A stretch of DNA of 57,671 bases, taken from positions 1 through 57,671 of the IMG/VR virus record IMGVR_UViG_3300037861_000188; one strand, given 5' to 3'. Both the position numbers and the translations under genes were made by a program. This stretch comes from a virus (lineage: Duplodnaviria > Caudoviricetes). Position 1 is the first letter of the stretch. Each line of letters opens with the position of its first letter. The notes below the pieces were generated by a model that had not been told where the DNA came from, made no database searches, and worked only from the letters and a program-made list of their open reading frames with translations. This document shows, piece after piece, positions 3,182-38,980 of the stretch.

Positions 3182-3553
3182 TTATGTTAGTGTAAATGGT
3201 AGAACGTATCGTAATCCAATGTTTATATTTGGGCGAATTACAATATTTAATTTTGAGTTCCGCTTTGAATAAATAACACTTATTGTACTGTTTAAATATG
3301 TTTTGATCTGATTTTCAACTGTTCCGGAACCTGACAAATCCGCTGAATTTATATAAATCACTTTCACCTCATTGTCTGCCTGATACCGACCATCGTTGTA
3401 TTGCCTGTTTCCTACCTGCTGATCTCCTGTCTCGCCAAGGATTGGAACGTCCTCCAGTCGAATCCGCTCTCCCTCTCCCAAATGAATAGATTCAGTGGGG
3501 TTTCCTGTGGCGTTATGCCCCTCTCTGCCGTGCCTGTTTCGTTTATTCTCCAT
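3182..3553 (-). CDS. Hypothetical virion/tail protein
   Basis: Start coupled to the nozzle gene stop; C-terminal GLRYVLPFTL; tail context. Confidence 0.6.
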   Translation of the reverse strand: MENKRNRHGREGHNATGNPTESIHLGEGERIRLEDVPILGETGDQQVGNRQYNDGRYQADNEVKVIYINSADLSGSGTVENQIKTYLNSTISVIYSKRNSKLNIVIRPNINIGLRYVLPFTLT

Positions 3554-19588: not shown

Positions 19589-22500
19589 CTACTTCATGTT
19601 CAGGATTTCTTTGATTGGGTTGGGTCTGTTTTTGTACATCACCTCTCCGTATTCCCTGTTAAATCCTCTCATTATTTTGGTTCGATCTTCATAGAGTTTT
19701 TCAATATCATCTTTATAAAGCTCCTTATCTGCGGATTTCATCTCCCCAATAATCTTGTTTAGATCCTTTACCAGCCTCTCATAGCCTTTGTATGTTTCCG
19801 ACAATCCAATCAATCCTTTGTTTTTATCATAGAATTTGGCTGCATCTTCGCTCAATCCTGCTTCCTGCATCTTTTCAAATGCTTCCACTGCGGTAATAGC
19901 CTTGTCTCTGTTTTCGTAGAAACTTGCTCGTGCTTCAAAGTCTGAACCTGTTTTTTGCACAAACGAACGGACAAAAGGAACCTTTCTGATAAATGGGTCT
20001 TCGAGAATATTCTCTCCGGAGATCACCTCAGCTACGGTGGTAGCGATGTTCTTGGTAAACTGAACAGGGCCGCCCAAATACTGCTCCATGCCATATTCCA
20101 GCCATTCAGGATTTATATCAATTTTCCCTGATACCACTTCATTTCCTCCACTTATCTTGTTCATGAACGTAGTGGACTCCTTGATAAATGGATTCACCCC
20201 TTCAAAATACATTTGACTGTCCGGTAGCTTAAACTGATTAGTGGTGAAGTTCTCTCGGTAGATTGGACTTCCTGCAAAGTTTCTGTTAAATCCAAGGTCT
20301 GCCAGTGGCTGAATTACGGAAGGTGAAGCAAGCATCATCGCCTGTTGGAATCCGTTTTGGTCGGAAGTAAAGTCATATCCTCCGATAGGTGAAAACACGT
20401 TTGTCGATGCGCCTAACATTCCCATAGCCTCCTTTTCAATATCGGATTTACCCATCATTGTTCTGCCTATGGACTCTCCAAAAGCATAAAATATGTTCAG
20501 TCCATAGGGCAAAGGAATCTTGATATAGTCTCCAGGAGTATCACTGAATAGATTTGGAAGGATTACATGGTTTTTCCGCACGTAGTCAGGAATCTTCTCG
20601 TAGTAGCTTCTTCCATCTTCATCCTCCTCATCCAGCATTCCCAACAAAAGAGACTGCATCATTCCTGCCGCCATTATTCCTCCGGCATATCCCAAGGCTT
20701 TTTTGGCTGTCTTTGGATTGGTGAAGCTTCTGGCCAATCGCTCTGTACCCTGAACCGAAGCATTGAAGAAAATAAAGATTGTACCCATCACTCCGGATGA
20801 TCGGCCTTTCCGGTTGAAGTTTACCGTCAGGTCCTTGGCTTTCGCTGCGGATTGCTGCTTACTCATTCCCTCATCTCGTAGGGTTTTGTAGTAGCTGAAT
20901 CGCATTGAGTTTTCCATGGTCTTGTTGTAAATCTCCAATCCCTGCCCGAATAGCTGTATTGGCTTGATTGCTGCGTTTCCTCCTCTTCTCCAAATCCCTT
21001 CCTTATCTGCCTTGTCAATCTCTTTTTTGGTCTGTGCAAAAACTTCTGCTGCGGTTTGAAGGTCAGTATATCCTGTCAATGCGCCCTCTTCCATAAATTC
21101 CCTGAGCATTTGCCCGTCTTTTCCTGCCGGGTACTCATCGTTTTTCAGAAATTTACCCAAGGTGATAGCGGACTTGCCCATTTTGCCAATGGTTTTTCTG
21201 GCTATGGTGGCATCCTGCTCTACCAAGATATTGAACGTACCAAAACCCACGTCACGAATTAAGTTTCTGATTCCGAATTCGGGGTTATACTGCGTGTACA
21301 TGGAGGATAGCCATCGGGTGTATGGGCGAAGCTTTTCGAAGAATCCCGGTACCTGATCCTGATTCATGTTCTTGATTGTAGGAACAATGCCGTATTTGGC
21401 TGCTTTAGGGTCGTTGTAGTTCACATCCTTGAACTCGATGAATACTTTCTTACCTTTTACCATTACGTCCAATACCGCAACCTGATCACCCTGCTGCTGC
21501 ACATGGCGATGAACTGCCGGGTCAAAACTTCGTATGGCATCACCATTGGCCAACTGTCCGGCTGTGGGCTTATTCATGGTTTCAATCCAAATATCATTTC
21601 CGTTTTCGTCTTGCATTTTGGTGTTTAAATAAAAGGCATTTCGAATAAAGTAATTGCCTGGAGAAACATTTTCCTTGACAAATTCCAGTACGGATTGTTT
21701 GGTTCGGTTCTTTTCCCCTCGCATGATTGATTCTTGCGCTGCTGTAAACAGGAACGGCAATGGATCTGCAGACTCGGAGGTTCTGCCCTTGGCACTCATC
21801 AGCAAAGTGTAAACCTTGTCATTGGTGCTTTCCATGCCACTCCAATCGGTCAACGGAACGTAATTCTCATATCGGGTCATCAGATCATCAAAGGTTTCCT
21901 TGGTGATCATTCCTGACTCATAGCGTTCCATGCTGGTGAAGTGGGAAATCGCCCGTACCTGCTGATTGAGCTGATCGATCATAGCCTTGTCCACGGAGGT
22001 TTCAAATGCTGCGATTCCGTCTGCGGCTTCTTCATCGGTCATTCCTGTAGGCCATCTGTCGTCTATTGGTACCGCTTTGCCTAATTGGGCATATTCATCC
22101 ATGAAATAAGCTTTTCGCTCGGCATGGTGCTTAAATTTGATATAATTGGAGATATCCTCTGAAGCTAATCCTGTGTCGTTATGGATCTTGTTGGCTGTTT
22201 TTATCAATGGCTTCCAGAGGTCTTTTATGAAAACCCGTGCCTTTTCCAGAGTTTTTCCTGAAGCAAGGTTTTCTTTGGTGTAGAAATCCGCTGCGTCTGA
22301 TACGTTTCCTCCTGTCTTTGATTGAATAAGCTTCTTGGATCGGATCATCCGGTCCTGAAGTGGCTCGATTACCTTTCGCTCAAACCAAGATAGCTTGGCC
22401 TCATTGAAGTTTCTGACATTGATTGCGGTGAAATCCGGTTCGGTAGATCCTACTCTCATAAACCGGATATCGCTGTTCTCCCCGTCAAAGGCTCCGGAGT

Positions 22501-25500
22501 TGTCGGTTGCGGATTTTATTTGAGTGGGGGAGAATACTGCGTAAACCACTGCTGGTTTTGAATTTTCATTGTTATTGTAATTGTCCCTTACATTTTTAAC
22601 AATAAGTGAGTCATACCCGTTTTTTTGCGCATATTCTACGAGATTTCTAGTCCCTTTTATTTTTTCTCCATTTATTTCTGTTTCAAATTTCCTCCATTCG
22701 GCTCCTCTAGCGTTAATTTCTAGTGGGTTTACAGCAGAAATGTATGTTGAAACGACTTCTTCTGTTGCTCCTTGATAGTCAAATGCTCTTTTAGGATCGG
22801 CATACGATTTGGCTTTAGATATTGAGTCAGTGAAGAAATAAGCTGGACTTTCATCGCTGCCAAAAAACGATTCATTCCTAGTTTTGAAGGTGTATGATTC
22901 CTTAAATTCTCTTGAATCTGGCATACCATGATAAACCACCAAAGGTTCTCCGTTGCTGTCCACTACCTTGCTGTCTCCAAACCATTTCTTGAATGCTGCG
23001 GACTGCGTTTGGGGTTGGGTCATGCTCATAGCCGGACCGCTTGCATTCTCCAGGAATATCTGATCTTCTCGGGAAACATCCTCGGTGGATTGAAGGGTTT
23101 GAGTTCTTCGCTCTTCTAGGGATAGGTTCGCTCTTGATTCTACGTTACGGGATTCGACTTCTCCGGCTATCCTCTGGTATAATCTAAATGCCTTTTGAAA
23201 ATCGTAAGTATTGCTTTCAAGGTCTTTAATTTGATTATTAATTCCTTGCCATTCTCTCAAAAGGTTTCTGCTTTCTTCCGTTTGGCCTTTGTACCTCTTG
23301 GCAAATGCTCTATCCTCCCATCTATTATAGATAATTTTATATTCTGATTTTAATGTTTTTATTTTTTCATTTAGCTCTTCACGGGTTTTAACTCCTGCTG
23401 CGCTTAATTTTTCTCTAAGTGCCACATCATTAATATTTCCACCGCTAGCAAATCCTTCTTTTTGCTGAATAGCGTGCTGAATCTCATGAAGCAGAGTGCT
23501 CAATATCTGCTTGTCGTTTTGGTGTTTGTCAGGATTAATTGTTATCTGTCCAAAACCTCCGTCACCTTTTAGTTTATTAAAACTTCCATACGACCCTGAT
23601 TTAGTGTCCATAACAACCTTTATCCACCTTAGTGCTGGGTACGCCTTGAACAGCTTGTTGTCATTTACAAATTCAACTAAATCAACACCGTTTTTCGTTC
23701 TTGCTTTTTCCGATGCTTTTAGTCTGTTGTCAATATTTTCAACAAAATCAATATCCTCAACCTCATACCTCCATTTTCCGTCTGCGCCTTTTTCCCATCC
23801 TGTCGCTATTTTAATTTGTGCTTCAGGACTGACACTAACAGTATGAAATTTATCCGCTTTGGCTTTTTGCCCGTTTTGCTCTATGATTTTATTTTCAGGC
23901 AAGGCCATGTAGTCATAAGCCTCATTTTGACTTGGAAATTCTATTCTTATATCTGTAACAGTAGTAAAATCTTCAATAAACCACTTTTCTTTTAATCCTG
24001 CTGCTTCCATTTCCCTTGCCACTCCAAGGTTATCTATTCGGATGGTGGCTTCTTCCTGCTTATCAAGTTTTCTGGCTCCCTGCTCTCCGATAATCATCTC
24101 TCTTGGAAGATTGGTCTGATCTATCCCCTCCCGAACCATCATACTGCCGTTTGGCCCCATCACAATCCTTCTGGAATTCCCTAGCATAGCTCTGATCTCT
24201 GAATCGGATAAACCTAATGTAATGCCCAAGTCACGTAGTATCTGTCGGAACTTTGTGATAGCTCGGTCTATCCACTGGTCCTGAACTCCGTCTTCTGCTA
24301 ATTTCGCTAGGTATTCATCACCAATGATTGTCTGCTCATTGGCCGATAGCTCCGAAGGTTTCTTTCCAAAGTATCGCTGTGAGATATCCGCAAGCACTGG
24401 ATCCGCTTTTTTGGCATCAAATACCTGCTGCATGAATGCTACATAGGAATCCACATACTTCTTTCGGTCTCCCTTGGCTTGCTGCTTGAGGAATTCACGG
24501 ACTCCGTAATGACCAATCACCTCATGGAGGATGGCTTTTTCTACGGCTCCCTTGCCTGATAGGTAGGAATGCGAAGCGATCAACACGGCTTTTGGTTCGC
24601 CTGTGGTCGCATCCTTGATAAATAGTGCCGGAACTTGGTTTATATCTTCCTCGCTGTACTGCTGCTCAAGCTCTGGGAATCTCTCCATGGCTTCTTTGCT
24701 GTTATTCAATACCACAATCTCGGGTGCATTGTTCCAGTTCTCGGTGAACTTGGCTGCTTTGTCGGTGATATCCTGCGCTTTCTTGGTGGGCTTCTGTTCT
24801 CCGTCTAGGATTCTGTTGAGGTCGGAGGCTGTGGAAGGTTTGGAGAATCGAACATCGTCCGGGTTGGCTTGGCCTTGCGAACCTTTCTGGATAAACTTGT
24901 CAGCTCCTTCTTTGCTCTTGAATCTGAATGCTTTGGAGTATCTATCGTAGAACCCGTCCATGGATTCAGCCAATACCTTTAATTCTTGGTAGTTCCCAAG
25001 ACTTTTAGTCATTTCGACCAAATGGAGTGGTGCGCCTGTTTTAGTGTGCTTTCCCTCCTTGTAGAGTAAATCTCCTATTTCTGCTTTTTCAGTAATTTCT
25101 TTGACTGCCTTCTCCTTCTTTGGTGCATCCTCTTCTTCAGTGATTCCTGCGAGCTGGTCAATGATCTGCTTTTTGTCCTGCACCTCTATTCGGGAAGGCA
25201 TTTCAACAAATTCAATCGCCTCAAATAATTCCTCTATGGTCTTTGCTCTGCGAAGATCAATAGACTCAGTGCCCATGTTTTCAACTTCTCTAGGATCTGA
25301 TGGCTTCTCAATCTTGTCAAAGATCAATATTCGGGTGTTTACCTTAGTTCCTGCCTGTTCAAAAGTTGATCCAGGAAGTAATATCTCTCCTCTTAGGTAG
25401 ATATTCTTAGCCTCTTTGGATTCCATAAACGCCTCTACTCGCTTGTCCATTGCTCCAACGGGAACCAAGGCCACCACTCGTCCACCATCATACAAATGTT

Positions 25501-28500
25501 TGATGGCTTTTTCTACGTGATCCATGGCTGTTTTTCCTGCAGAACCAAACGGAGGATTCATTGCTACTCCATGAAACTTGTTGATGATGTTGAAATCCTC
25601 AAACCTCATGTTCATTGAATTTGCTCCCGAAGCAACAATGGAAGCTTTGGTAAATAGCTTCATGCTCTCTTCAATGATCGTCCGGTTACTGCTTCCTGGG
25701 AACCACATGGCGATTGCTCCTTTTCCTACTGAAGGCTCCAATACTTTTTCCATTGGCTCCAATCCTAGAAACTCAACCATTTTCTGACCTACTGGCTCCG
25801 GGGTAGCGTAGAAATCCACGCCTTCTCGCTCGTCTCTCCGTCCTCTGGTCTTTTGGTTGGACTGATAGTATAGGATTGCTTTTCTGTACTGGCTTCGTTC
25901 CTCGGATATACGCTTGTCCAATTCCTTGCCTCCAATACCCTGCTCTTGGTTTGGCGCATCGTCTGTGGCTGCCTGTACTCCTGCGATAAATGAATTGATC
26001 AAGTCTCTTGATCCGTCACCCATGGCAAGATTTTCCGTAGTGGAAAGTTTTGTATTGATATTGCTTGCAAAGTGCATGATCTCGAAATCAAGACCCATAA
26101 CAGGGTATTCATAGACTGCATTGGAAGAAACACCTATACGATATATCCTACCTTCGATTTGCAGGGCTGTGGTACTGCTTCTGGGCATGGATAGGGACAC
26201 AAGAACCCGTTGCTCTGTTCCGCTTGTGTCGTGTAAAGAAATACCTTCCTTTCCTGATTCTTCTTGAACCATGATGATCTTTACCGGACCGCCTACTTCA
26301 TTGAAATCTGTTACATTTACACCTGACTCCTTGTCTTTTTTAGAAGTTTTCCCGTTTTGGAATCTGATCTGTTCTCCAAATGCTTCTGCAAACTGCTCTA
26401 CTGCTGAACGGTAGTCCAATCCCTTTTCCCATTGAAATAAGTCGTCATACTGTTCTCTGAAATCCGCTACCTGTTGTAAAGCTAATTTAGCTTTCTCTAT
26501 TGTTTTATCATCGTTTCCTTCCTGACTTAAAATAGCTATCGCATTAAGCATCGTTTCATTGGCAATCTTAAAAAACGGTGGTTCAATGTTGGCTTGTTGC
26601 CTTCTGTGGAACATCACTATTTTTCTGCCCATTTTGATATGTTCCTTCATTCTAGGAATCATCAAAGTGGCTTTCATACTCTCAAGTAGCTGTGTAGTGT
26701 AGTTGGTATTGAAAAATGTGTTTGTGGCTGCCTTGCTCAATGCTTCAAATCCTGAATCCTTTGTTCGGATTGCTTCAAGTGCTTCATTGAATCGTTCGCT
26801 TTTTTCTCCAGTAAGGATTGGGAAATCCCTTCTGTAATCCATATCAGATTCAATCGCACGGCCTGACATTACACCATCTTGTACTAGCTTGGCATTGAAT
26901 GCAATTTCCTGCATGGATATGGCATCCAAATTAGGCTTCCCTTTTAATTGAAGCTGATTCGTTTTCCATTCGTATTTACTGCCAAAATTATCCAGAAAGA
27001 ATTGGCCTTCTGGATCAACACGGCTCATGCCTTGTGATTTAGGGATGAATGTGGTTTCTGTTCCCCAATCGAATAAGACTCCGTTGGCATAGCGTAGGTT
27101 CATGATAGTCTTAAACGGTGTAGCGGAAAGGAATACTATTTTGGTTTTTCCTACTACCTCGGCTGCTCTTTTTTCTAAAACAGGGGTAATCCTCTTAATT
27201 TCCTGTTCTACCTCTTTTTGCTCTTTTCTTGCCTCTTCAAGTCGTACTGCAACATCTAAATTATTTGGGCTGTCAGTAAGCCATTTTTCAGAAGAATTAA
27301 TTTGATCATATAAAGCTTTGCTCTTAGCCCATAAACCCGTAGCATCCTTTAACCTTTTAAGCGCATTGTTTTTAGAGGTGTTGGAATTCATGTAATGCGA
27401 ACGGGTGGTGCTGGACTCTTTGGCGTTCTTGTCCTCCATCAGTCTATGAGACTCGTCATAGACAATCAAATCAAAGTCTCGCTCATACAAGGCTTTGTTT
27501 GCCCTGAATGTGGCAAAAGTGGTTACGCTAACGCCCTTACCTGCATCTTTGGTGTTTTTGATTTTGGTTGCATTCATGCCAAGATTTTTTGCATCTTTTA
27601 CCCAGTCCGATACTTTGGTTTGGGATGGCGTGATAATCAAAATATTTTTCTTGCCTTCCTTTAGGAATCGCTTTACAATACCAAGTCCGGTGTAGGTTTT
27701 ACCCGTTCCTGTTCCGTTGGTGAATAAATATCCTTTTCCGTTGGCTTTCTTGGGATCGGATGAATCAGGGCCAAAGAATCTGTTTTCTGCCTTAAATACA
27801 TCTTCCTGCTGCTCTGGTAATAGGAAAGGCAATGTCTCTCGAATGTTGTCAAGATCCCCAACTTTGCCGGGAATAGATTCTGCCGCCTGTTGAAGTTTTA
27901 GCCTTTTTGCTGTCTTATTTGCAAAAGATTCAATTTGCTTCTGAGTGTCCTGATCAATGTCATTGTCTCCTGTTTGTCCAGCATCATTTCCCGTTGGGCT
28001 GTCAAGGCTGTTTCCTCTGCCGTCAACAAGTCCGGTACTTGGTTTCTTTCCGTCTGATCTGGATTCGTTTGGAAATAAGTCGATAATGCCTCCCTTTCCG
28101 CTAGGATTGGAAGATAAGCCACTATTGCCCTTGCTACCTGGTCGCTTCCTGTTTCCTTTTTTACCTCCGCCCTCATTTTTCGTTCCAGTATCTCGTTCAT
28201 TTCCTCTGTCGCTTGGAATAGACTCGTTGTCTCCTTGTACTGGAGCTTCACCGTCTTGCTGATCTTGTTCGCTAGTTCCTGGTCTATCAGATACATCTTC
28301 TTGATTGTTTGTAAGTTGTTTGACAAAATTATCAATATCAAAGTCATCCACCTCATCAGTTGGGGTCATTTCTTTTGAAATGCCTTCTCGCTTGAAGTCT
28401 GGATCTCTTTTTAGCTGCTCATAGAATCCGGATAGATAAGGAGCAATCCCTTGTCCGAAGTCCTCAACCATTACCCTGACGAAATCAGCGAACTTCCTAG

Positions 28501-31500
28501 AACCTGCTTCAAGGTGATAGGCACTGTATTTAAGTGCTGCTGCTGAAATCTCTGAATCAAGACCAATGTAAAGTTTCCCTCCCTTGCCTTTGAAGAAGTC
28601 TTGAAGCTTTTTCTTTGCATCCTCTACTTCTTTTTCAGTTACAAGCTTATTGGACTTTCCGTAATTGGAAGGTCTTTCAATTGGTTTTCTTGGGGCTTTT
28701 GGAGGTGCCTGATTGGATTTTTTAAAATTTATGGCATCTTCTTTAAATTTAATGAAATCTTCTGCCGTCTGAAATGATTTGGGTAATACTATGTCAGGGT
28801 TGTCAGAATAAACTACTTTAGTCTCTATGCCTATGTTTGTTTCTTGCCTAAACTTATACTCTGTTCCAATTTCAGTCTCCTTTTTGGAAATAAGTTTTAC
28901 ATTTGAAGCATACGGCAATTTGCCTGTTTTATTTGGTTTGGCAGGTTCCTGTACTGGTGGTTCATTTGGTTGGGGTTGGTTTTTCCTATTTGATATAATT
29001 AAATCAATAGCGGTAATAGCGTCTTTTAGTTCTTCAAACACTCCTTGATCTTCTTCCTTGTATTTACCCAAATCAGATTCAAGTTCTTTTTTAACTTTTT
29101 CTAGTTTTTCAGTAGAATCTTCTTTTTTAACTCCTATTAGGAAAGGATTATCATTTAAAATAGATTCTATTGGATCGGACTTTTCAACATTCAGAAAATC
29201 ACCTGTCTTTTTCTGTACTTCATTTGCAAAATCAATAGCTTCTTTTTCACTATTGAAATAAACAAACCCGTTTTTATCAACATTTTCATTGTTGATTAGA
29301 TTTTGCCCTACATTTACTTTGTGTGTCGGGAATCTTACCTGAACCGCTCCATCAGCTCCTTGACCAACGGGTTTTTCTGGTACATTTTTAGGAGTAGGCT
29401 GTTGCGCTGATCCAGTGACAGGCTTGGCTGGTTGTAGTGGCGCATCTGGGGATTGAGGTGTAATCGCTCCGGTAGCTGGTTCATTCTGGCTGTTTTCAAA
29501 TCTATCTAGTCTTGACTCAATTTGGTTGCCTATTCTCTGAGGCATTCCAGTAGGGAATTTAAGAACTTCATCTAATATACTCTGAATCTCTTCACTTCCA
29601 TTGTAATCTTGGCCTATAACCTCCCTGATCTCACTAATCATCCGATTATAAGTCTCAGTACCGATTAAGTTTTTAATGTCTACTAGGTTTTTTTCAGCTA
29701 ACTCTTTAGCATATCTGTTTCGGATCTCTGTTATCTTTTTGTCTGCTTTTGAGAAAACTCCTGATATTCCTTTTAGTAAATAATCTGTACTTAAAATTGT
29801 GCCTATTCCTCCGGTCAATAAGTAGTCTGCCGCAATAGTATTATCAACGGTGCTTTCCTGAGCTCCGGTAGGTGGGTTATTCTGGATTACTTCTTCTTTG
29901 TTCCCTTCTTGGGTACGCAATTCGGCACCTTCCTGCCCCCTTTGTCCTTCATCCCTATTGCCTGGTAGCCCTTCCAGCACGGGTCTTTCTTCGCTGATTT
30001 TTTCATCTTGTTGTGGTTTAGGTGTTATATCCTCTTTCGGAGTAAACATACCCCGAAGCTTTTCTGCTCCTTCATTAGCCTGTGGTGCTGCCTCGGCTTG
30101 CTGTGGCTGTCTGAACTGTTGGAAGTCTGCAACGGGAATCGTTTCAAAAATAGTCCCGTCCTCATTCTCCAACTGAACGATTCCTTCCTCTAGGTTTACG
30201 CTTGAAACTGAAAACTCTTGACCATCTATGGGGATTTTCTCCCCTATCTGAATAGGGTTTGCAGGATCGAATACCTGAGTTTGTTCTGGAACAGGGCCGA
30301 AAGTCTCGATAAACTGATCAAATGGCATTGTCTCCTGCTCGGAAAGTCCTAGGCTTGATACCACTTTCTTTTCCTCTCCGGGCTTCTGTATGACTGCGTT
30401 TCCGTCAGGGAACATTGCTGTGACAAATACCTTTTCTCCGTTGAATTGAGCTGCTGAGATCATTTGAACTCCGTCCTGACCTTGGAAGGTCATCGCCTGA
30501 TATTCACCTCTGATCGTGTCGCTCTCCTGATTGGCTGATTGTGTCGCTGCTTCGTTGGCTCTATTCTCCTGAAGTGCTTGTCCCTGATACTTGCCTTTCA
30601 AAAGCTCTGTAAATGTTTCAGGCTTGATTTGGAAAACCCTATTAATGTCATTTTCTGAGACGGTTGTCGTTGTCCCGTTTGCCCGAATAGCATTATAGAA
30701 CATTTCTTGCCCGATTGTTCCTTCAACAGATCCGGAAGGTGTTGCCTGTTGTCCTGTTTTAGGTTTTGATTTTGCGGGGCCAACGATTTCTACTGCCCCG
30801 CTGTTGTCTGCCATCTCCGCAAATACAAGAGTTTCTGCAGCACTTCTTCGCTGTTGGTTTTCAATTCTGTTTGCAGCGAAAGAAACAGGACCAATCGCAA
30901 CTCCCATTACTCCTCCCAATACAAAAGCTTCTCCTGATTCTTTCAGGATTTCAATCGGCTTTTTCCAATCCTTTCTTTCCTGAAACAAGTAATTCGAAAA
31001 TTCCTGTCCAAAAGTGGTTGCTCCTTCGGTAGATCCTTCAATGACAAATCCCCTCCCTGCTGATTTCAGCACTCCCTCAACCAATGTGGCTCTGGATTGA
31101 CTTGAATTGGCAAAATCTGTAATTAGGTCTTTGGCTGTTTTTTCAACTACGGGACCAGCACCCATGACGTCTATTACTGATTTAGAAAGTTTCGCCTGTA
31201 CTGACGCTGGTATGAATTTGGATAATGCAAATCTTTCCATTCCAAATTCAAGACTTCCATACAATGCGCCCATTCCAAGTCTTGCGAGTGGGTCAGACTC
31301 TTGGCCCTTATCTTTCTTGTACTCGTCATAAGTTTCAATTCCAGAACCGAACGATACGGCTGATAATCCTACAACATTTGCCAAGCCTATTGCCCCTGCT
31401 ACCGGTGCGGATATAGGCTTTGTCACTACTGCTGCCAAAATACCTGCTGTATAGGGGACAACGGATCCTATTTTATATCCCCAAGATTCTGTGTCTCTGG

Positions 31501-32350
31501 TTTCGTTCAGCTCGTCTGCCTCCTTGTCTCGGTCTGCTGCGTACTCCCTTAATCCTGCTCCTATGCCATTATCTATTCCCGATGCTTGCAGCCTTTTTTG
31601 TTCTAGGTAATTCATCGCCTTAGCTAGGTAAGGCGTCACCCCACCAGACCCCGAATTCGCTGCAAGCGTAAGATCTGCTGCTTCTGATATGCCTTTTGCC
31701 CCTAATGATTTAACCTTTTCCCATGACGGATGAATACCGTCAACAAAATCCTCGTACCAAGCTTTGTCAATCTTTGGTTTTTGGGCTTGAGCTGCTGGTT
31801 TTGGGGCGTTGTAAGCCTCTAAAATCTTTGAATTTTTAATCCGCTCCAATTCAGGATCGTTCATCACGCCTAGATTTCCTAGGTTTTTTGTGCTTTCAGA
31901 CTGCTTAATAGTCTGAGCTGTCTGTTCCCGTGTTAAGGATTGACCATTGGCTGAATAGCTGGGGGTTTCTGTAGGATTGATGCCTTTGGGCAGTTCTGGC
32001 ATGAACTGATCCAAGGTGCCTCCAACTGTTCCGGGCATAGGCACCGGAGAAGGAGGAGTTGGCATATCCTTTAATAATGGGGAAAAGCCCTGTCTGCCTG
32101 TTTGTGGCGTTGGTATTTGACTAGGGTTTGAAAAAATTGGGGGTTGGTTAATAGGTTGTTCCGGTGTCTGTTGTTTGCTTGGGTTATAATATTTCAGTAA
32201 AGGGTTTTCAGGTTCAGATGAAGGCTGTACTGCTTCCGGTTGATTTTTTTTGCTCTGAAGTCTCTCTCTAGCTGCCTTGATCTTAGCGAATACGTCGGTT
32301 TCTTTCTGCATTTCAGGGGGAATATTATTGTTTTGGGCGTAAAAGTTCAA
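19589..32350 (-). CDS. Giant polyvalent DarB-like injected protein (SF2 helicase, N6-adenine MTase, zincin-like, LPD23-like, ART-like, LPD38-like)
   Basis: GTGTGKT, DESH, LSATP, QIEGRIYR; DFYATP, EPSVGKG, MNPPF; HEVIGH; GWEKGADGKWRYE and HEIQH; FKKWFGDSKVVD..PLVVYHG; IKIPLPYG and NRNFAGSPIY. Confidence 0.85.
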   Translation of the reverse strand: MNFYAQNNNIPPEMQKETDVFAKIKAARERLQSKKNQPEAVQPSSEPENPLLKYYNPSKQQTPEQPINQPPIFSNPSQIPTPQTGRQGFSPLLKDMPTPPSPVPMPGTVGGTLDQFMPELPKGINPTETPSYSANGQSLTREQTAQTIKQSESTKNLGNLGVMNDPELERIKNSKILEAYNAPKPAAQAQKPKIDKAWYEDFVDGIHPSWEKVKSLGAKGISEAADLTLAANSGSGGVTPYLAKAMNYLEQKRLQASGIDNGIGAGLREYAADRDKEADELNETRDTESWGYKIGSVVPYTAGILAAVVTKPISAPVAGAIGLANVVGLSAVSFGSGIETYDEYKKDKGQESDPLARLGMGALYGSLEFGMERFALSKFIPASVQAKLSKSVIDVMGAGPVVEKTAKDLITDFANSSQSRATLVEGVLKSAGRGFVIEGSTEGATTFGQEFSNYLFQERKDWKKPIEILKESGEAFVLGGVMGVAIGPVSFAANRIENQQRRSAAETLVFAEMADNSGAVEIVGPAKSKPKTGQQATPSGSVEGTIGQEMFYNAIRANGTTTTVSENDINRVFQIKPETFTELLKGKYQGQALQENRANEAATQSANQESDTIRGEYQAMTFQGQDGVQMISAAQFNGEKVFVTAMFPDGNAVIQKPGEEKKVVSSLGLSEQETMPFDQFIETFGPVPEQTQVFDPANPIQIGEKIPIDGQEFSVSSVNLEEGIVQLENEDGTIFETIPVADFQQFRQPQQAEAAPQANEGAEKLRGMFTPKEDITPKPQQDEKISEERPVLEGLPGNRDEGQRGQEGAELRTQEGNKEEVIQNNPPTGAQESTVDNTIAADYLLTGGIGTILSTDYLLKGISGVFSKADKKITEIRNRYAKELAEKNLVDIKNLIGTETYNRMISEIREVIGQDYNGSEEIQSILDEVLKFPTGMPQRIGNQIESRLDRFENSQNEPATGAITPQSPDAPLQPAKPVTGSAQQPTPKNVPEKPVGQGADGAVQVRFPTHKVNVGQNLINNENVDKNGFVYFNSEKEAIDFANEVQKKTGDFLNVEKSDPIESILNDNPFLIGVKKEDSTEKLEKVKKELESDLGKYKEEDQGVFEELKDAITAIDLIISNRKNQPQPNEPPVQEPAKPNKTGKLPYASNVKLISKKETEIGTEYKFRQETNIGIETKVVYSDNPDIVLPKSFQTAEDFIKFKEDAINFKKSNQAPPKAPRKPIERPSNYGKSNKLVTEKEVEDAKKKLQDFFKGKGGKLYIGLDSEISAAALKYSAYHLEAGSRKFADFVRVMVEDFGQGIAPYLSGFYEQLKRDPDFKREGISKEMTPTDEVDDFDIDNFVKQLTNNQEDVSDRPGTSEQDQQDGEAPVQGDNESIPSDRGNERDTGTKNEGGGKKGNRKRPGSKGNSGLSSNPSGKGGIIDLFPNESRSDGKKPSTGLVDGRGNSLDSPTGNDAGQTGDNDIDQDTQKQIESFANKTAKRLKLQQAAESIPGKVGDLDNIRETLPFLLPEQQEDVFKAENRFFGPDSSDPKKANGKGYLFTNGTGTGKTYTGLGIVKRFLKEGKKNILIITPSQTKVSDWVKDAKNLGMNATKIKNTKDAGKGVSVTTFATFRANKALYERDFDLIVYDESHRLMEDKNAKESSTTRSHYMNSNTSKNNALKRLKDATGLWAKSKALYDQINSSEKWLTDSPNNLDVAVRLEEARKEQKEVEQEIKRITPVLEKRAAEVVGKTKIVFLSATPFKTIMNLRYANGVLFDWGTETTFIPKSQGMSRVDPEGQFFLDNFGSKYEWKTNQLQLKGKPNLDAISMQEIAFNAKLVQDGVMSGRAIESDMDYRRDFPILTGEKSERFNEALEAIRTKDSGFEALSKAATNTFFNTNYTTQLLESMKATLMIPRMKEHIKMGRKIVMFHRRQQANIEPPFFKIANETMLNAIAILSQEGNDDKTIEKAKLALQQVADFREQYDDLFQWEKGLDYRSAVEQFAEAFGEQIRFQNGKTSKKDKESGVNVTDFNEVGGPVKIIMVQEESGKEGISLHDTSGTEQRVLVSLSMPRSSTTALQIEGRIYRIGVSSNAVYEYPVMGLDFEIMHFASNINTKLSTTENLAMGDGSRDLINSFIAGVQAATDDAPNQEQGIGGKELDKRISEERSQYRKAILYYQSNQKTRGRRDEREGVDFYATPEPVGQKMVEFLGLEPMEKVLEPSVGKGAIAMWFPGSSNRTIIEESMKLFTKASIVASGANSMNMRFEDFNIINKFHGVAMNPPFGSAGKTAMDHVEKAIKHLYDGGRVVALVPVGAMDKRVEAFMESKEAKNIYLRGEILLPGSTFEQAGTKVNTRILIFDKIEKPSDPREVENMGTESIDLRRAKTIEELFEAIEFVEMPSRIEVQDKKQIIDQLAGITEEEDAPKKEKAVKEITEKAEIGDLLYKEGKHTKTGAPLHLVEMTKSLGNYQELKVLAESMDGFYDRYSKAFRFKSKEGADKFIQKGSQGQANPDDVRFSKPSTASDLNRILDGEQKPTKKAQDITDKAAKFTENWNNAPEIVVLNNSKEAMERFPELEQQYSEEDINQVPALFIKDATTGEPKAVLIASHSYLSGKGAVEKAILHEVIGHYGVREFLKQQAKGDRKKYVDSYVAFMQQVFDAKKADPVLADISQRYFGKKPSELSANEQTIIGDEYLAKLAEDGVQDQWIDRAITKFRQILRDLGITLGLSDSEIRAMLGNSRRIVMGPNGSMMVREGIDQTNLPREMIIGEQGARKLDKQEEATIRIDNLGVAREMEAAGLKEKWFIEDFTTVTDIRIEFPSQNEAYDYMALPENKIIEQNGQKAKADKFHTVSVSPEAQIKIATGWEKGADGKWRYEVEDIDFVENIDNRLKASEKARTKNGVDLVEFVNDNKLFKAYPALRWIKVVMDTKSGSYGSFNKLKGDGGFGQITINPDKHQNDKQILSTLLHEIQHAIQQKEGFASGGNINDVALREKLSAAGVKTREELNEKIKTLKSEYKIIYNRWEDRAFAKRYKGQTEESRNLLREWQGINNQIKDLESNTYDFQKAFRLYQRIAGEVESRNVESRANLSLEERRTQTLQSTEDVSREDQIFLENASGPAMSMTQPQTQSAAFKKWFGDSKVVDSNGEPLVVYHGMPDSREFKESYTFKTRNESFFGSDESPAYFFTDSISKAKSYADPKRAFDYQGATEEVVSTYISAVNPLEINARGAEWRKFETEINGEKIKGTRNLVEYAQKNGYDSLIVKNVRDNYNNNENSKPAVVYAVFSPTQIKSATDNSGAFDGENSDIRFMRVGSTEPDFTAINVRNFNEAKLSWFERKVIEPLQDRMIRSKKLIQSKTGGNVSDAADFYTKENLASGKTLEKARVFIKDLWKPLIKTANKIHNDTGLASEDISNYIKFKHHAERKAYFMDEYAQLGKAVPIDDRWPTGMTDEEAADGIAAFETSVDKAMIDQLNQQVRAISHFTSMERYESGMITKETFDDLMTRYENYVPLTDWSGMESTNDKVYTLLMSAKGRTSESADPLPFLFTAAQESIMRGEKNRTKQSVLEFVKENVSPGNYFIRNAFYLNTKMQDENGNDIWIETMNKPTAGQLANGDAIRSFDPAVHRHVQQQGDQVAVLDVMVKGKKVFIEFKDVNYNDPKAAKYGIVPTIKNMNQDQVPGFFEKLRPYTRWLSSMYTQYNPEFGIRNLIRDVGFGTFNILVEQDATIARKTIGKMGKSAITLGKFLKNDEYPAGKDGQMLREFMEEGALTGYTDLQTAAEVFAQTKKEIDKADKEGIWRRGGNAAIKPIQLFGQGLEIYNKTMENSMRFSYYKTLRDEGMSKQQSAAKAKDLTVNFNRKGRSSGVMGTIFIFFNASVQGTERLARSFTNPKTAKKALGYAGGIMAAGMMQSLLLGMLDEEDEDGRSYYEKIPDYVRKNHVILPNLFSDTPGDYIKIPLPYGLNIFYAFGESIGRTMMGKSDIEKEAMGMLGASTNVFSPIGGYDFTSDQNGFQQAMMLASPSVIQPLADLGFNRNFAGSPIYRENFTTNQFKLPDSQMYFEGVNPFIKESTTFMNKISGGNEVVSGKIDINPEWLEYGMEQYLGGPVQFTKNIATTVAEVISGENILEDPFIRKVPFVRSFVQKTGSDFEARASFYENRDKAITAVEAFEKMQEAGLSEDAAKFYDKNKGLIGLSETYKGYERLVKDLNKIIGEMKSADKELYKDDIEKLYEDRTKIMRGFNREYGEVMYKNRPNPIKEILNMK
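27898..28296 (-). CDS. Gene nested in the +1 frame of the giant gene (132 aa, helical)
   Basis: MYLIDQELANKISK...; A-rich start AACAATCAAGAAG-ATG; host frame here is G/D/R/S-rich disordered linker. Confidence 0.55.
   Translation of the reverse strand: MYLIDQELANKISKTVKLQYKETTSLFQATEEMNEILERKMRAEVKKETGSDQVARAIVAYLPILAEREALSTYFQTNPDQTERNQVPDLLTAEETALTAQREMMLDKQETMTLIRTLRSKLNLLQIRQQKG
29887..30006 (-). CDS. Nested 39-aa basic peptide with CWKGY...VPNCVP motif (+1 frame of the giant gene)
   Basis: MKKSAKKDPCWKGYQAIGMKDKGGRKVPNCVPKKGTKKK; A-rich start AAACCACAACAAG-ATG. Confidence 0.7.
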   Translation of the reverse strand: MKKSAKKDPCWKGYQAIGMKDKGGRKVPNCVPKKGTKKK

Positions 32351-35339: not shown

Positions 35340-37325
35340 CTAAAAACTCGCAATATTCCCTGCGGACTTCCTGCGAACAATCGGTTTTAATTCGATCATT
35401 TTTACCGGAGGCATGTAGTCCAGGCATCCCCATGCGCCAAGACCGTCTACAATGACGTGATCATCGTGCGCTCCCTCTACTGCTCCTGTCTTTCCGTTGC
35501 CTTTGTTCTCGAAGCTGTCTGCCTGATCCATAGACCTTTCATCGTAATTCATAATCGCATCATCCCGATAGGCTGCATTGAGTGAATTCAGGATCATTGG
35601 CTTGGTCTGTGCATTCATGTGGAACCCGTACAAAGCTGGCATACCTTTTATGATCTGTTCTGGGTTGGTTCTGCAGAATATATTCCCGTAATGCCCGATA
35701 ATTTCATCCACCAAGGTATAAAACTGATCTCCTTCATCGAATGTGCTGGTGTCCTCTCGCATTTTGTTGATCTCTGGAATGAAGAAGGCATTGTCATAGG
35801 TTTTACATAGCTGCACCGCTTTCCATGCCAAGTGATCAAAGTCAATATGTCCAGCCCATGTTGCCACAAGCTCAGGAAGTCCGGCTTCCATCATCCAGAA
35901 TCTATCCCAAACCTTGATTACCGATTCATCTGACTCCTTGCTTCGCCCTCCAATATCCAGGGTGACTAGGTAGCGGTTCTCATACTTCACATCGGGAAAC
36001 GTCTCAGGCATGGCCCATACTGATAGATTACCCTCGTTTGCTTTCTCTATTCGAATGTTGTTGAGCGATTCAGGACCTTTGTTTGAATCTCCGTAGATAT
36101 CACCTCTAAACAATGGAGGTTTGCAGAATCTTCTGGCCTGTGCAATGACTCGCATCGGAAAGAATCTCGCTCCGGAAGATTGAAAGGCTTCAATGTCGTT
36201 GGATGGAAACTCCGAACACATACTTACCCGATCCCCTTTGTATTCGCCTAACTTCTTGCGGTACCATTTGATCCCTTCCAGCGTTGCGCCCTGCTCCCAT
36301 AGATCAAATTCATCTGTACTCAGGGTTTTAATCAGCTCAATTCGCTCGATTTCGTCTGCAAATGGGATGTGGTACTTCTCAATCTCATACCACGCCACAA
36401 AAACGGGAGTGTAGCTTCCTGTTCGCTTGGCTTCGGTCCAGCTTTGGTGAAAGAAATTTCCTACTCCTTTGGCTGTGGATTCCATCACCACCATGGTCAT
36501 CGGCTTCATGTCGATCGTTCCCAAGATGGACTGAATCAAGTCCTCCGGCTTCTTTCCTTCGGTCTTGCGCCATAGTCCTACCTCAGACAGGTGCGCCATG
36601 GCAATATCGTCAGATCGTATGGATTCAGGAGTCTGCATTGAACCAATCGTGATCTTGTTGGCTCGTTCGGATATGATCTTGATGTTCTGGGTGCCTTCAA
36701 ATGGTGTCAGGCTTAACGGCTCCCATGGATAATTTGTGACTGCTTTTCGAAGCATCGCCCGGATGTTTGTGGATGCTTGATTCTGGTGTGCAGCAATTAG
36801 GCTGTTCCAGTTCTTCATGTGCCTTGCCTGAATCCAAAACATAAATACCTGCGTGAGAGTAGATCCGCCCCATTGTCTTGCTTTCAGGAGAATGATCCGG
36901 ATAGGTAGCTTCTTGTCAAACATTCGCATCAATTCCTTGAGCAGCTTCCGTTGTCCGTTGTTGAGTTTGAATCGTATATCATTCCCTCCGTCCTTGTTTT
37001 TGATCAAAATGGAGACAAACGCCCAATACTCGAAGTCAAAATCCAATCTTCCTTCGTGAATGGTCTGGAGTAGCTTAGTGATCTCAATTCCTTCGGCTTC
37101 TGCGTAGGCTTCTGCGCTTTTGTGCTTGCTGTTGGCGATATATTGAATCTCAGGTATGCCCAACATGGTTGTTGGCAGTCTTACGGGTGCCTTTTGAGTC
37201 TTATAGTAGAAAAAATCAAATCGATCAATAGGGGATCCTTCGCCCATAATCGGGTCGTAGTGCGCAAACATGGCTGCAAACCTGCGCTGGTTCTCCTGGA
37301 TGATGTAGGGGATGGATCGGTTCAA
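35340..37325 (-). CDS. terL: Terminase large subunit
   Basis: Walker A LKARQWGGST, Walker B AHLSEVG, MESTA coupling motif, RNase H TLDIGG and HDDHVI; TTG start coupled to upstream stop. Confidence 0.95.
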   Translation of the reverse strand: MNRSIPYIIQENQRRFAAMFAHYDPIMGEGSPIDRFDFFYYKTQKAPVRLPTTMLGIPEIQYIANSKHKSAEAYAEAEGIEITKLLQTIHEGRLDFDFEYWAFVSILIKNKDGGNDIRFKLNNGQRKLLKELMRMFDKKLPIRIILLKARQWGGSTLTQVFMFWIQARHMKNWNSLIAAHQNQASTNIRAMLRKAVTNYPWEPLSLTPFEGTQNIKIISERANKITIGSMQTPESIRSDDIAMAHLSEVGLWRKTEGKKPEDLIQSILGTIDMKPMTMVVMESTAKGVGNFFHQSWTEAKRTGSYTPVFVAWYEIEKYHIPFADEIERIELIKTLSTDEFDLWEQGATLEGIKWYRKKLGEYKGDRVSMCSEFPSNDIEAFQSSGARFFPMRVIAQARRFCKPPLFRGDIYGDSNKGPESLNNIRIEKANEGNLSVWAMPETFPDVKYENRYLVTLDIGGRSKESDESVIKVWDRFWMMEAGLPELVATWAGHIDFDHLAWKAVQLCKTYDNAFFIPEINKMREDTSTFDEGDQFYTLVDEIIGHYGNIFCRTNPEQIIKGMPALYGFHMNAQTKPMILNSLNAAYRDDAIMNYDERSMDQADSFENKGNGKTGAVEGAHDDHVIVDGLGAWGCLDYMPPVKMIELKPIVRRKSAGNIASF

Positions 37326-38263: not shown

Positions 38264-38851
38264 TTACTTATTATTAATGTAATTATTTATATCTCCAAAG
38301 AAGTTATTTTGGACCGGTCCGGCTCCTTCCAATGGCTTCGGCTTGGTTAGTCCCGTCATTTCCTCCAACACGGATAGAGACTTGTCTTTGTCGGCTATTT
38401 TATAGCTGATCTCCCGGCTAAGGACTATTCCTCCGCCCTCTTCATCTCCCTGCTGCATCAATACCTTCTCCTTGATTGTCACCTGGTTGAGTGCTGCGTA
38501 GTGCTTTGGGTCAATCTGGTCCTTGTTCTTCAACCGCCATTCGTTATCAACTAAATCAGTAAGGTTAGTGAAGGCCATGTTCGCTCTCTCCCTCAATACT
38601 CGCTCTTGGGTGATTCCAAGTGCTTCGAGTAGCGGTGCGGCATGGTTGTCAAGGTATTTCTTAATGTTAGCATTTGATAGGAGTTTAGAAGCTGTAATCC
38701 TTGCCGTTTTTTCCGCATATCCCGTTGAAATGGCTGCCTGTGTCGCATTCTTATTGGCAGACCCTAGGTAATACTCACAAAACATTTTTTCACGCTCAGA
38801 AAGCCTTATTTCTTCCCCGTTCCTAAGTGTGATGACCTCCTGTTTTGCCAT
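38264..38851 (-). CDS. terS: Terminase small subunit
   Basis: FCEYYL...NATQAAISTGYAEKTARITASKLL; start placed at MAKQE. Confidence 0.9.
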   Translation of the reverse strand: MAKQEVITLRNGEEIRLSEREKMFCEYYLGSANKNATQAAISTGYAEKTARITASKLLSNANIKKYLDNHAAPLLEALGITQERVLRERANMAFTNLTDLVDNEWRLKNKDQIDPKHYAALNQVTIKEKVLMQQGDEEGGGIVLSREISYKIADKDKSLSVLEEMTGLTKPKPLEGAGPVQNNFFGDINNYINNK

Positions 38852-38980
38852 GTTGTAAATATAATAACTCTTTTCGTAAAAAAAATTACATTTTGCTTTG
38901 ATCTTATTATTACTTGTAGTAATATTACTCAACGAACAGGACAAACCGAGGAATAGCGGACAAACTAAACGATAAGGATT

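What the first reader, a model, noticed from the sequence alone, without database searches (positions are those of the whole stretch)
29887..30006. Hidden 39-aa CWKGY...VPNCVP peptide gene overprinted inside the giant protein gene
The +1 frame encodes MKKSAKKDPCWKGYQAIGMKDKGGRKVPNCVPKKGTKKK, with an A-rich Bacteroidota-style start and a TAA stop; it is below the ORF-track cutoff. From memory, the CW.GY...G.K.K.G+.VPNCVP motif recurs in small or repeat proteins of aquatic phages (not verified here). The giant protein's frame over this stretch is a featureless E/G/R linker, as expected if the nested frame is under selection. Possibly a DNA-binding internal capsid peptide.
Basis: partly seen in the sequence, partly recalled or inferred. 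Interest (0 to 1): 0.7.

Follow-up and report, generated by a model that had tools for sequence, protein, structure and literature searches.

The report
Small conserved gene nested in giant phage gene
A complete 39-residue, very basic mini-protein gene of a huge but unnamed phage family lies out of frame inside a 4253-residue phage gene and still looks selected in its own frame, a rare case of an old small gene swallowed by a giant one.

Summary
Window 29887..30006 (-) is a 39-codon ATG..TAA frame, +1 relative to the 4253-aa polyvalent-protein gene 19589..32350 (-) of a complete 57.7-kb phage genome.

It is not a chance frame. The peptide is a full-length member of a very large, unnamed family of Lys-rich CWKGY...VPNCVP mini-proteins and modules. 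I found 125 free-standing proteins of 24-79 aa, and 6819 cluster representatives by profile search. Pfam, NCBIfam and PDB have no entry.

In 74 resolved IMG/VR loci the module is either a free-standing small gene (25) or in frame within a larger protein (49). It is never out of frame inside a long gene.

The nested copy keeps the family's start, stop and every invariant residue:
- All 3 substitutions against a 96%-identical relative are synonymous in the nested frame and non-synonymous in the giant frame.
- A second relative has an insertion at the ORF's tail yet keeps the ORF.
- None of the 25 free-standing genes is open in the frame the giant gene uses.

Best reading (about 0.6): a captured small gene, still translated from its own SD-less start, while the giant frame reads it as a linker. 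Expression and function (probably a cationic, nucleic-acid-binding beta-hairpin) are untested.

A second conserved +1 ORF lies at the next module junction.

The parts
29887..30006 (-). Nested ORF1: ATG (30006..30004) to TAA (29889..29887), 39 aa, net charge about +12 (14 K+R, 2 D+E). Full-length member of the CWKGY...VPNCVP mini-protein family.
   Evidence: ORF; homology; all 10 invariant and 6 nearly invariant family columns kept; 3 of 3 substitutions synonymous in this frame; charge; third codon positions A10 C8 G20 T1.
29914..29979 (-). Conserved core CWKGYQAIGMKDKGGRKVPNCV. Predicted beta-hairpin (strands at residues 14-22 and 25-32), with the two invariant Cys at residues 10 and 30.
   Evidence: coordinates; invariant columns; AlphaFold2 on alignment A1, mean pLDDT 77.9, about 90 over residues 11-30.
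30007..30027 (-). Leader of the nested ORF: in-frame TAA (30025..30027) followed by an A/C-rich, G-poor, Shine-Dalgarno-less stretch before the ATG.
   Evidence: sequence; only 5 of 44 ATG genes of this genome have an SD-like tetramer; start-context score 1.41, rank 19 of 253 internal ATGs of the giant gene, at the 45th percentile of leave-one-out true starts.
29840..30043 (-). Inter-module linker of the giant protein (giant frame). It lies between the N-side module ending ...GAEKLRGMF and the module starting TIAADYLLTGG, and contains ORF1.
   Evidence: the N-side module is shared with P0125-P0127 and the C-side module with P0128-P0133. The linker is not homologous in P0126, nor in L086.
19589..32350 (-). 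Host gene: 4253-aa polyvalent protein (frame 0), between a terminase-side block and the portal gene 17400..19457.
   Evidence: ORF; precomputed Pfam PF13872, PF18760, PF18838, PF18857, PF04851 on P0122; portal phrog_156 for 17400..19457; small terminase phrog_51 for 38264..38944.

Best explanation
ORF1 is a genuine small gene that was carried into an inter-module linker of the giant polyvalent-protein gene and is still used.

Shown:
- It is a complete, typical member of a very large family of ~35-50-aa Lys-rich mini-proteins. The family has the same M + basic N-tail, PCWKGY..G.K.K.G.K.VPNCVP core and basic C-tail, and is elsewhere encoded by free-standing, translationally coupled genes.
- The giant frame reads the same DNA one base out of register as a poorly constrained E/G/R linker.

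Inferred:
- Ribosomes start independently at ATG 30006 on the giant gene's mRNA, using the SD-less, A/C-rich leader typical of this phage's genes. This would yield a free 39-aa peptide.
- The peptide folds as a Cys-flanked cationic beta-hairpin and most likely binds nucleic acid (phage DNA during or after packaging, or host nucleic acid). It could act beside the giant protein, which is encoded between the terminase and portal genes and is presumably delivered with the DNA.
- The nested copy's synonymous sites have been shaped to keep the giant frame free of stops. Both frames are therefore maintained.
For: (1) Homology and completeness. 125 of 126 candidate proteins of 24-79 aa match at E <= 0.01, best 3.4e-12. 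In the 44-sequence alignment A1 the nested peptide has every invariant residue (C10 W11 Y14 G18 K20 K22 P28 N29 C30 V31), and the same length, start and stop layout as, for example, P0084 (39 aa). The profile search found 6819 representatives at E <= 1e-3 and 2294 at E <= 1e-10.

(2) Free-standing relatives are real genes. 25 of 74 resolved IMG/VR loci have it as a small ORF. 17 of those 25 abut a co-directional neighbour with a gap of -4 to +2 nt. In six loci with a closely similar core, the small gene keeps the same place: it is followed by a ~90-aa gene and then, in five of the six, by a ~590-aa ORF. All six match window 35340..37325.

(3) Frame-specific selection. Against L001 (96% identical, 70 substitutions in 1815 nt), the 3 substitutions inside ORF1 are all synonymous in the nested frame and all non-synonymous in the giant frame. 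Among the other 58 substitutions (those outside ORF1 and the ORF2 region), 39 are synonymous in the giant frame and 3 in the +1 frame. Fisher p = 5.6e-4. The neutral chance of 3 of 3 is 0.0066.

(4) L004 has a ~207-nt net insertion in the giant gene at the ORF's 3' tail, yet the nested frame stays intact (36 aa...PKKKK*). The same junction appears in contigs of two further runs.

(5) Dual-frame shaping. 0 of 25 free-standing genes are open in the giant-equivalent frame (2-12 stops each), and the 28-codon core is open in only 2 of 74 loci. The window copy has none, and only 1 T among 39 third positions.

(6) The start context resembles this genome's real starts.
Against: - There is no evidence of translation of any kind.
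- The selection signal rests on 3 substitutions, and L004 adds no independent one.
- All genomes with the nested arrangement are close kin. Two sequences were compared at about 96-97% nt identity (L001, L004). One metagenome contig is about 93.5% identical but its letters were not available to me. The arrangement may therefore be young.
- More distant relatives of the giant gene lack ORF1: L086 at 44% aa and P0126 at 33% aa.
- The start-context score is ordinary rather than outstanding: rank 19 of 253 internal ATGs.
- The nested position is unique among the 74 resolved loci and the 7 exact-core stretches, so there is no precedent within the family.
- The function is guessed from charge, a hairpin model of moderate confidence (pTM 0.41) and neighbourhoods that vary.
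Confidence: 0.6

Rival explanations
1. Silent fossil. A free-standing CWKGY gene, or a copy of one, was recombined into the linker recently. Only the giant frame is translated, and the nested frame is intact because too little time has passed.
For: The nested arrangement is seen only in close kin: L001 and L004 at 96-97% nt identity, plus salt-lake metagenome contigs. It is absent from L086 and P0126. Only 3 substitutions are informative. The module family is highly mobile: it occurs N-terminal, internal or C-terminal in 49 unrelated larger ORFs, so capture events are common.
Against: All 3 substitutions are synonymous in the nested frame although the giant frame tolerates amino-acid changes there (neutral chance 0.0066). 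Three further changes fall within 10 nt just after the nested stop. An indel at the tail left a proper stop after a family-typical poly-K tail. The giant-equivalent frame carries 2-12 stops in every one of 25 free-standing genes. Opening it without touching any invariant residue suggests that both frames were watched.
Confidence: 0.22
2. Frameshift product. A fraction of ribosomes translating the giant gene slip +1 near the A-run GAAAAAAT at the ORF's start. They make a truncated ~820-aa protein ending in the CWKGY module, which in many relatives is the C-terminal module of larger proteins.
For: The module is C-terminal in several larger proteins, for example P0140 542-577 of 578 and P0186 768-798 of 808, and L017, L042 and L054. 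A run of six A lies at codons 2-3 of ORF1. A second conserved +1 ORF ends at the next module junction, which would fit a scheme of truncated products.
Against: No recognised +1 slippery or pausing signal is evident by eye; the next giant-frame codon is ATC, not a stop. No search for a stimulatory structure was made. The A-run follows simply from Lys codons and is also present in free-standing homologues. The ORF has its own ATG at the family-typical distance from the core, and the shift window is limited to 6 codons by the upstream TAA.
Confidence: 0.07
3. Recombination joint only. The stretch is kept at the DNA level as a conserved joint at which modules of polyvalent genes are exchanged. Its coding look is inherited and irrelevant.
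For: Module breakpoints lie at both ends of ORF1. L004's insertion starts inside the ORF's tail. Short contigs in two runs carry the ORF with other sequence beginning 7 or 21 nt upstream of the ATG. The next junction element is present twice in L004, around an extra module.
Against: A DNA-level element would not restrict change to third positions of one frame. It would also not keep every invariant residue of a protein family together with that family's start and stop. This reading is compatible with the best explanation rather than exclusive of it.
Confidence: 0.08
4. Chance open frame with a chance motif.
For: Short off-frame ORFs are common in long genes (one search lists several).
Against: E-values are 7e-10 to 3.4e-12 against very large databases, and the whole family architecture matches.
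Confidence: 0.01

Closest known systems
Phage lambda Rz1 inside Rz (o-spanin gene wholly embedded in the +1 frame of the i-spanin gene). Seen as search listing and abstract starts of PMC5295617 and PMC6139136; details recalled.
   Same: A small gene lies entirely within a larger phage gene, on the same strand, in the +1 frame, with its own start.
   Different: Rz1 is a lipoprotein functionally paired with its host gene. ORF1 shows no evident hydrophobic signal peptide or lipobox motif in its sequence (read by eye, no prediction tool run), and no link to the giant protein is shown. The embedded gene here belongs to a family that is normally free-standing, so it is older than the frame that covers it.
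Unnamed CWKGY...VPNCVP module. It is present inside PHROG families phrog_9737, phrog_4359, phrog_727, phrog_28131, phrog_22379 and phrog_36547 (all 'unknown function'), and in ESM Atlas clusters of 36-42-aa 'hypothetical proteins'.
   Same: Sequence, length, invariant residues, and basic N- and C-tails.
   Different: Everywhere else examined it is a free-standing small gene (25 of 74) or in frame in a larger ORF (49 of 74). Only here and in close kin is it out of frame inside a long gene.
Polyvalent proteins of phages and conjugative elements (Iyer et al. 2017, PMC5512222). I saw the search listing and abstract start only.
   Same: The host gene is such a protein: many modules in one polypeptide, Pfam 'large polyvalent protein-associated' domains, and modules that differ between near-identical phages.
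   Different: I did not read the paper's text, so I cannot say whether nested genes in linkers are mentioned there. My motif-string search of the paper library found nothing.
Small cationic phage peptides such as phiKT gp28, used for outer-membrane disruption (bioRxiv 10.1101/515445). Search listing and abstract start only.
   Same: Small, strongly cationic, phage-encoded. A subgroup of 63-87-aa CWKGY proteins sits next to endolysin genes (7 of 48 neighbours match phrog_894).
   Different: No sequence relation was tested. ORF1 is not in a lysis cassette. Foldseek rows to alpha-defensins are non-significant (E >= 2).

Membership tests
CWKGY...VPNCVP mini-protein / module family (unnamed) | Core C-W-x-G-Y-x3-G-x-K-x-K-x4-V-P-N-C-V-P with all invariant residues | tested here: met
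   Alignment A1 of 44 sequences: C10 W11 Y14 G18 K20 K22 P28 N29 C30 V31 are invariant, and K12 G13 V27 P32 K33 K34 are at least 90% conserved. All are present in ORF1. Matches: phrog_9737 E 6.5e-10; best small protein E 3.4e-12.
CWKGY...VPNCVP mini-protein / module family (unnamed) | Free-standing form: Met, 5-18 mostly basic residues, core, short basic tail, stop; total about 35-50 aa | tested here: met
   ORF1 is 39 aa, MKKSAKKDP + core + KKGTKKK*. Compare P0084, P0094 and P0052 and the 25 small ORFs.
CWKGY...VPNCVP mini-protein / module family (unnamed) | Encoded as an independent gene (own intergenic position or coupled to neighbours) | tested here: not met
   ORF1 is entirely inside another ORF in a different frame. 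None of the 74 resolved loci shows this.
CWKGY...VPNCVP mini-protein / module family (unnamed) | Protein is made | not testable with these tools
   No proteomic or ribosome-profiling data were available.
Embedded overlapping phage genes (Rz1-in-Rz type) | Small ORF wholly within a larger gene, same strand, +1 frame | tested here: met
   (32350-30006) mod 3 = 1.
Embedded overlapping phage genes (Rz1-in-Rz type) | Purifying selection in the embedded frame | tested here: inconclusive
   3 of 3 substitutions are synonymous in the nested frame, p = 5.6e-4 against the rest. However, n = 3 and the relatives are close.
Embedded overlapping phage genes (Rz1-in-Rz type) | o-spanin features (signal peptide, lipobox Cys) | tested here: not met
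   The sequence shows no hydrophobic N-terminal segment and no lipobox. It is not a spanin.
Programmed +1 frameshift product | Slippery site with a slow or stop codon in the A site, conserved, and no need for an own start | tested here: inconclusive
   There is an A6 run at codons 2-3, but the next giant-frame codon is ATC. An own ATG is present, and a TAA lies 6 codons upstream.
Any named Pfam / NCBIfam family or solved structure | Significant profile or sequence match | tested here: not met
   Pfam gave 0 families at E <= 10. NCBIfam gave 0 at E <= 1. The PDB profile search gave 0 at E <= 1. Foldseek against PDB gave 0 at E <= 0.001.

The most novel reading that the evidence does not exclude
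The junctions between modules of this group's giant polyvalent genes are dual-coding cassettes. Each joint carries a small +1-frame gene: ORF1, the CWKGY hairpin peptide, and ORF2 at 29335..29484. Each small gene is translated in its own right. Because it is conserved, it also supplies the DNA homology at which modules are swapped, inserted and duplicated. The mini-genes would then both ride on and drive the shuffling of the anti-host arsenal.
Probability: 0.2. Interest if true: 0.8.

Novelty: new variant of a known kind. Interest (0 to 1): 0.6.

Why it matters
Overlapping genes in phages are usually thought of as new frames born inside old genes. Here an old, very widespread small gene appears to have been engulfed by a giant modular gene and kept. 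The giant frame uses it as a linker, and both frames have adjusted to each other.

If the peptide is made, three things follow:
- Gene callers miss functional small genes inside giant phage genes.
- One of the largest uncharacterised mini-protein families of environmental phages gains a first handle. The family has 6819 cluster representatives and no Pfam, NCBIfam or PDB entry.
- The inter-module linkers of polyvalent proteins may carry more information than their own frame shows.

If it is only a fossil, it still marks how modules and small genes are stitched into such giant genes.

Tried and rejected
Searches with no result for the peptide:
- Pfam, NCBIfam, PDB sequence profile and Foldseek-PDB gave nothing significant. 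The top Foldseek rows were alpha-defensins at E >= 2, which I do not count.
- The paper library was searched for five motif strings. The single hit was an unrelated oak paper. The motif is therefore not in print as far as that one search shows.

Hypotheses rejected:
- The motif is in frame in relatives of the giant protein and shifted here: 0 of 12 giant relatives carry it in frame.
- A two-gene cassette was captured whole (the small gene plus its usual ~90-aa basic downstream neighbour, phrog_4689). An HMM of 14 short downstream neighbours (a mixed set) found nothing in 51 window ORFs including the giant; best E 0.73.

Attempts to find more, or older, nested copies:
- An IMG/VR scan with the junction protein found 1 locus.
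- A metagenome scan found 2 loci, one of them the same contig as L001.
- An N-module alignment found L086, which has no ORF1.
- A degenerate pattern for the exact core found 7 stretches, 6 free-standing and 1 on the L001 contig. The synonymous/non-synonymous counts are biased by the pattern itself, so I do not use them as evidence of selection.

6 of the 80 were not resolved by my regex/ORF script.

Sequencing runs:
- No RNA holder is listed among the 18 coded runs.
- In read laying, the table of other letters was cut (120 rows hidden). It could not be used to count variants inside ORF1.
- Reading the two 30-letter loose ends by hand, the giant-equivalent frame seems open upstream in both. That is a hand reading of short contigs and I give it little weight.

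ORF2: no PHROG, phage tblastn or small-protein homologue was found, and no locus beyond L001's and L086's contigs.

Tools not used or not available:
- Supplements of papers were not consulted.
Full report
**What is there.** The window is a complete virus record of 57,671 bp with direct terminal repeats. On the minus strand a single 4253-aa ORF (19589..32350) lies between a terminase-side block and the portal gene. The small terminase (phrog_51) is at 38264..38944 and the portal (phrog_156) at 17400..19457. The precomputed Pfam hits on the giant protein are the helicase/methylase and 'large polyvalent protein-associated' domains: PF13872, PF18760, PF18838, PF18857, PF04851.

The nested frame is open for only 45 codons, because a TAA lies six codons before the ATG. 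A six-frame scan finds no second copy in the genome.

**It is not chance.**
- tblastn against 50,697 phage records gave 382 records with a match, best E 7e-10. They are mostly cyanophages, but also haloarchaeal viruses and others.
- Nine PHROG families match at E <= 10. Eight have no known function; the ninth, a large-terminase family, matches only at E 0.36. The module sits at different positions inside them.
- Among called proteins of 24-79 aa, 125 of 126 candidates match at E <= 0.01, best 3.4e-12 in 5.8 billion.
- Aligned, 44 of them show one architecture: Met, a short basic tail, PCWKGY.x.G.K.K.G.K.VPNCVP, and a short basic tail. ORF1 has every invariant and nearly invariant residue and the typical length.
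- A profile search of 1.84 billion cluster representatives found 6819 at E <= 1e-3 and 2294 at E <= 1e-10. The listed proteins are 46 to 961 aa long and carry one to three copies.
- Pfam, NCBIfam and the PDB have nothing. Ten larger carriers gave no Pfam family above threshold, and only 'unknown' PHROGs plus one 'virion structural protein'.
- ESM Atlas neighbours are unnamed clusters of 36-42-aa proteins.
- A search of the paper library for the motif strings found nothing relevant.

**How the family is normally encoded.** In 25 the module is a small ORF under 100 aa. In 49 it is in frame within an ORF of 144-848 aa, at the N-terminus, in the middle or at the C-terminus.

In none is the module covered by a long same-strand ORF in another frame; the longest is 47 codons.

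The small ORFs behave as real genes. 17 of 25 abut a co-directional neighbour with a gap of -4 to +2 nt. Six loci with a core closely similar to ORF1's share one gene order: the small gene is followed by a ~90-aa very basic protein and then, in five of the six, by a ~590-aa ORF. All six loci match the window's 661-aa protein 35340..37325, which lies near the small terminase gene.

Of 48 neighbours of small genes, 12 match phrog_4689 (the ~90-aa basic protein) and 7 match an endolysin family. phrog_4689-type domains are fused to the module in some larger proteins, such as the L006 protein.

**Position in the giant gene.** ORF1 lies in the linker between two conserved modules. The N-side module ends at ...GAEKLRGMF and is shared with P0125-P0127. 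The next module starts at TIAADYLLTGG and is shared with P0128-P0133. Relatives at 33% (P0126) and 44% (L086) identity have an unrelated linker there and no ORF1 in any frame. None of 12 giant relatives has the motif in frame. The small-gene sequence is therefore the old component, and the giant frame's reading of it is the young one.

**Is the nested frame still under selection?** Three lines bear on this.

First, against L001 (96% identical over 1815 nt, 70 substitutions), the three changes inside ORF1 (29986, 29983, 29914) are all synonymous in the nested frame and all change the giant protein. Of the 58 substitutions outside ORF1 and outside a second odd region, 39 are synonymous in the giant frame and 3 in the +1 frame. 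Fisher p = 5.6e-4, and the neutral chance of 3 of 3 is 0.0066.

Second, L004 carries an extra ~69-aa module whose insertion point is inside the ORF's 3' tail. The nested frame nevertheless ends properly (36 aa...PKKKK*). The same junction stands in contigs of two further runs.

Third, every one of the 25 free-standing genes has 2-12 stops in the frame that the giant gene uses, and the 28-codon core is open in only 2 of 74 loci. The window copy has none. It avoids T at nested third positions (1 of 39), for example GGC, CCG and GAC where relatives have GGT, CCT and AGT before A-rich codons. The copy has thus been fitted to carry two open frames without losing one conserved residue.

**Start signal.** Only 5 of 44 ATG genes of this genome have an SD-like tetramer. 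Their leaders are A/C-rich and G-poor. ORF1's leader (13 A, 7 C, 2 G and 3 T in 25 nt) looks the same. A position-weight score puts it at rank 19 of 253 internal ATGs of the giant gene and at the 45th percentile of true starts scored by leave-one-out. This is compatible with a real start but not distinctive.

**Weak points.**
- Nothing shows translation.
- Only three substitutions are informative.
- All carriers of the nested arrangement are close kin.
- The family offers no second nested example.
- The read-laying table of variants was truncated, so population variants inside ORF1 could not be counted.

**What the peptide may do.** It has 14 K+R against 2 D+E. AlphaFold2 on the family alignment gives a beta-hairpin (strands 14-22 and 25-32) with pLDDT about 90 in the core, mean 77.9 and pTM 0.41. 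The two invariant Cys flank it. No fold or sequence match names it.

The module is attached to many kinds of proteins. Among the 49 larger ORFs, 3 match cytidyltransferase families, 2 a polynucleotide kinase family and 2 an ATPase family. One separate larger protein matches a virion structural protein family. In halovirus HSTV-1 the module lies mid-protein in the annotated head maturation protease, next to the capsid gene.

My best guess is a general cationic nucleic-acid-binding clip. This is inference.

**A second +1 ORF.** While checking substitutions I found that 7 of 9 changes in 29346..29419 are synonymous in the same +1 frame and none in the giant frame. That frame is open from ATG 29484 to the stop at 29335 (49 aa).

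The 44% relative L086 has the same ORF with the same start motif and the stop at the same place. Over the last 23 codons the +1 frame keeps 15 residues with 5 synonymous codon differences (including Arg codon-family switches). The giant frame keeps 9 residues with 1 synonymous difference.

Homology between the window, L001 and L004 breaks exactly at this ORF's stop, and three different modules follow. L004 holds the last ~47 nt twice, around an extra module. The four differences between the two copies, read off the two printed copies, are all synonymous in the +1 frame. No homologue was found elsewhere. I followed this up only partly.

**Verdict.** I rate it a new variant of a known kind (embedded phage genes). 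I put about 0.6 on a functional nested gene, about 0.2 on a recent fossil, and the rest on frameshift or DNA-joint readings.

Noticed in passing
window 29335..29484 (-), also 29499 as TTG start; L086:3816-3953; L001:4667-4816: A second ORF in the same +1 frame of the giant gene (49 aa, MNQLPERLHL...NPLVKELMERFR*) at the next module junction. 7 of 9 substitutions against L001 are synonymous in it and 0 in the giant frame. It is conserved in a 44% relative, with the stop at the same place and Arg codon switches. No homologue was found elsewhere.
   Followed up: partly
L004:4977-5023 and L004:5318-5364; window 29336..29382: The last ~47 nt of that second ORF (giant frame PEKPVG.G.DGEVQV) occur twice in L004, flanking an extra ~98-aa module. 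The window, L001 and L004 carry three different modules directly after this element, so it looks like a joint at which modules are exchanged.
   Followed up: partly
L004:4247-4469 (window junction 29888/29905): A near-identical relative has an extra ~69-aa module inserted into the giant gene, exactly at the 3' tail of the nested ORF. The same junction (223 letters between) stands in contigs of coded runs X3 and X4.
   Followed up: yes
L005:1807-2082, L008:2730-3002, L013:6102-6374, L031:2983-3255, L065:2611-2886, L070:2523-2795 and others: Free-standing CWKGY genes are often followed by a ~90-aa, extremely basic protein (…GAGMTKKGV…NPGSKLKTAVTGKVK…RRRWKC; phrog_4689, 12 of 48 neighbours). The same domain is fused behind the module in larger proteins such as L006:3302-4603. 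This is a gene-fusion link between two uncharacterised basic proteins. The window has no copy of it.
   Followed up: partly
L016, L024, L052, L053, L056, L061 (small ORFs of 63-87 aa): A subgroup of CWKGY proteins has a C-terminal extension ending in YY.D(I/L)(I/L). 7 of the 48 neighbours scanned match an endolysin family (phrog_894); which loci they lie in was not checked.
   Followed up: no
L089 (KC117378.1, HSTV-1) 4001-4096 within CDS 3305-4726: In halovirus HSTV-1 the module lies in the middle (about residues 233-264 of 473) of the protein annotated as head maturation protease, directly upstream of the capsid gene.
   Followed up: no
whole window: Only 5 of 44 ATG-start ORFs have an SD-like tetramer upstream. 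Leaders are A/C-rich and G-poor, as in hosts that do not use Shine-Dalgarno pairing. The coded runs that hold the sequence are labelled salt lake metagenome.
   Followed up: partly
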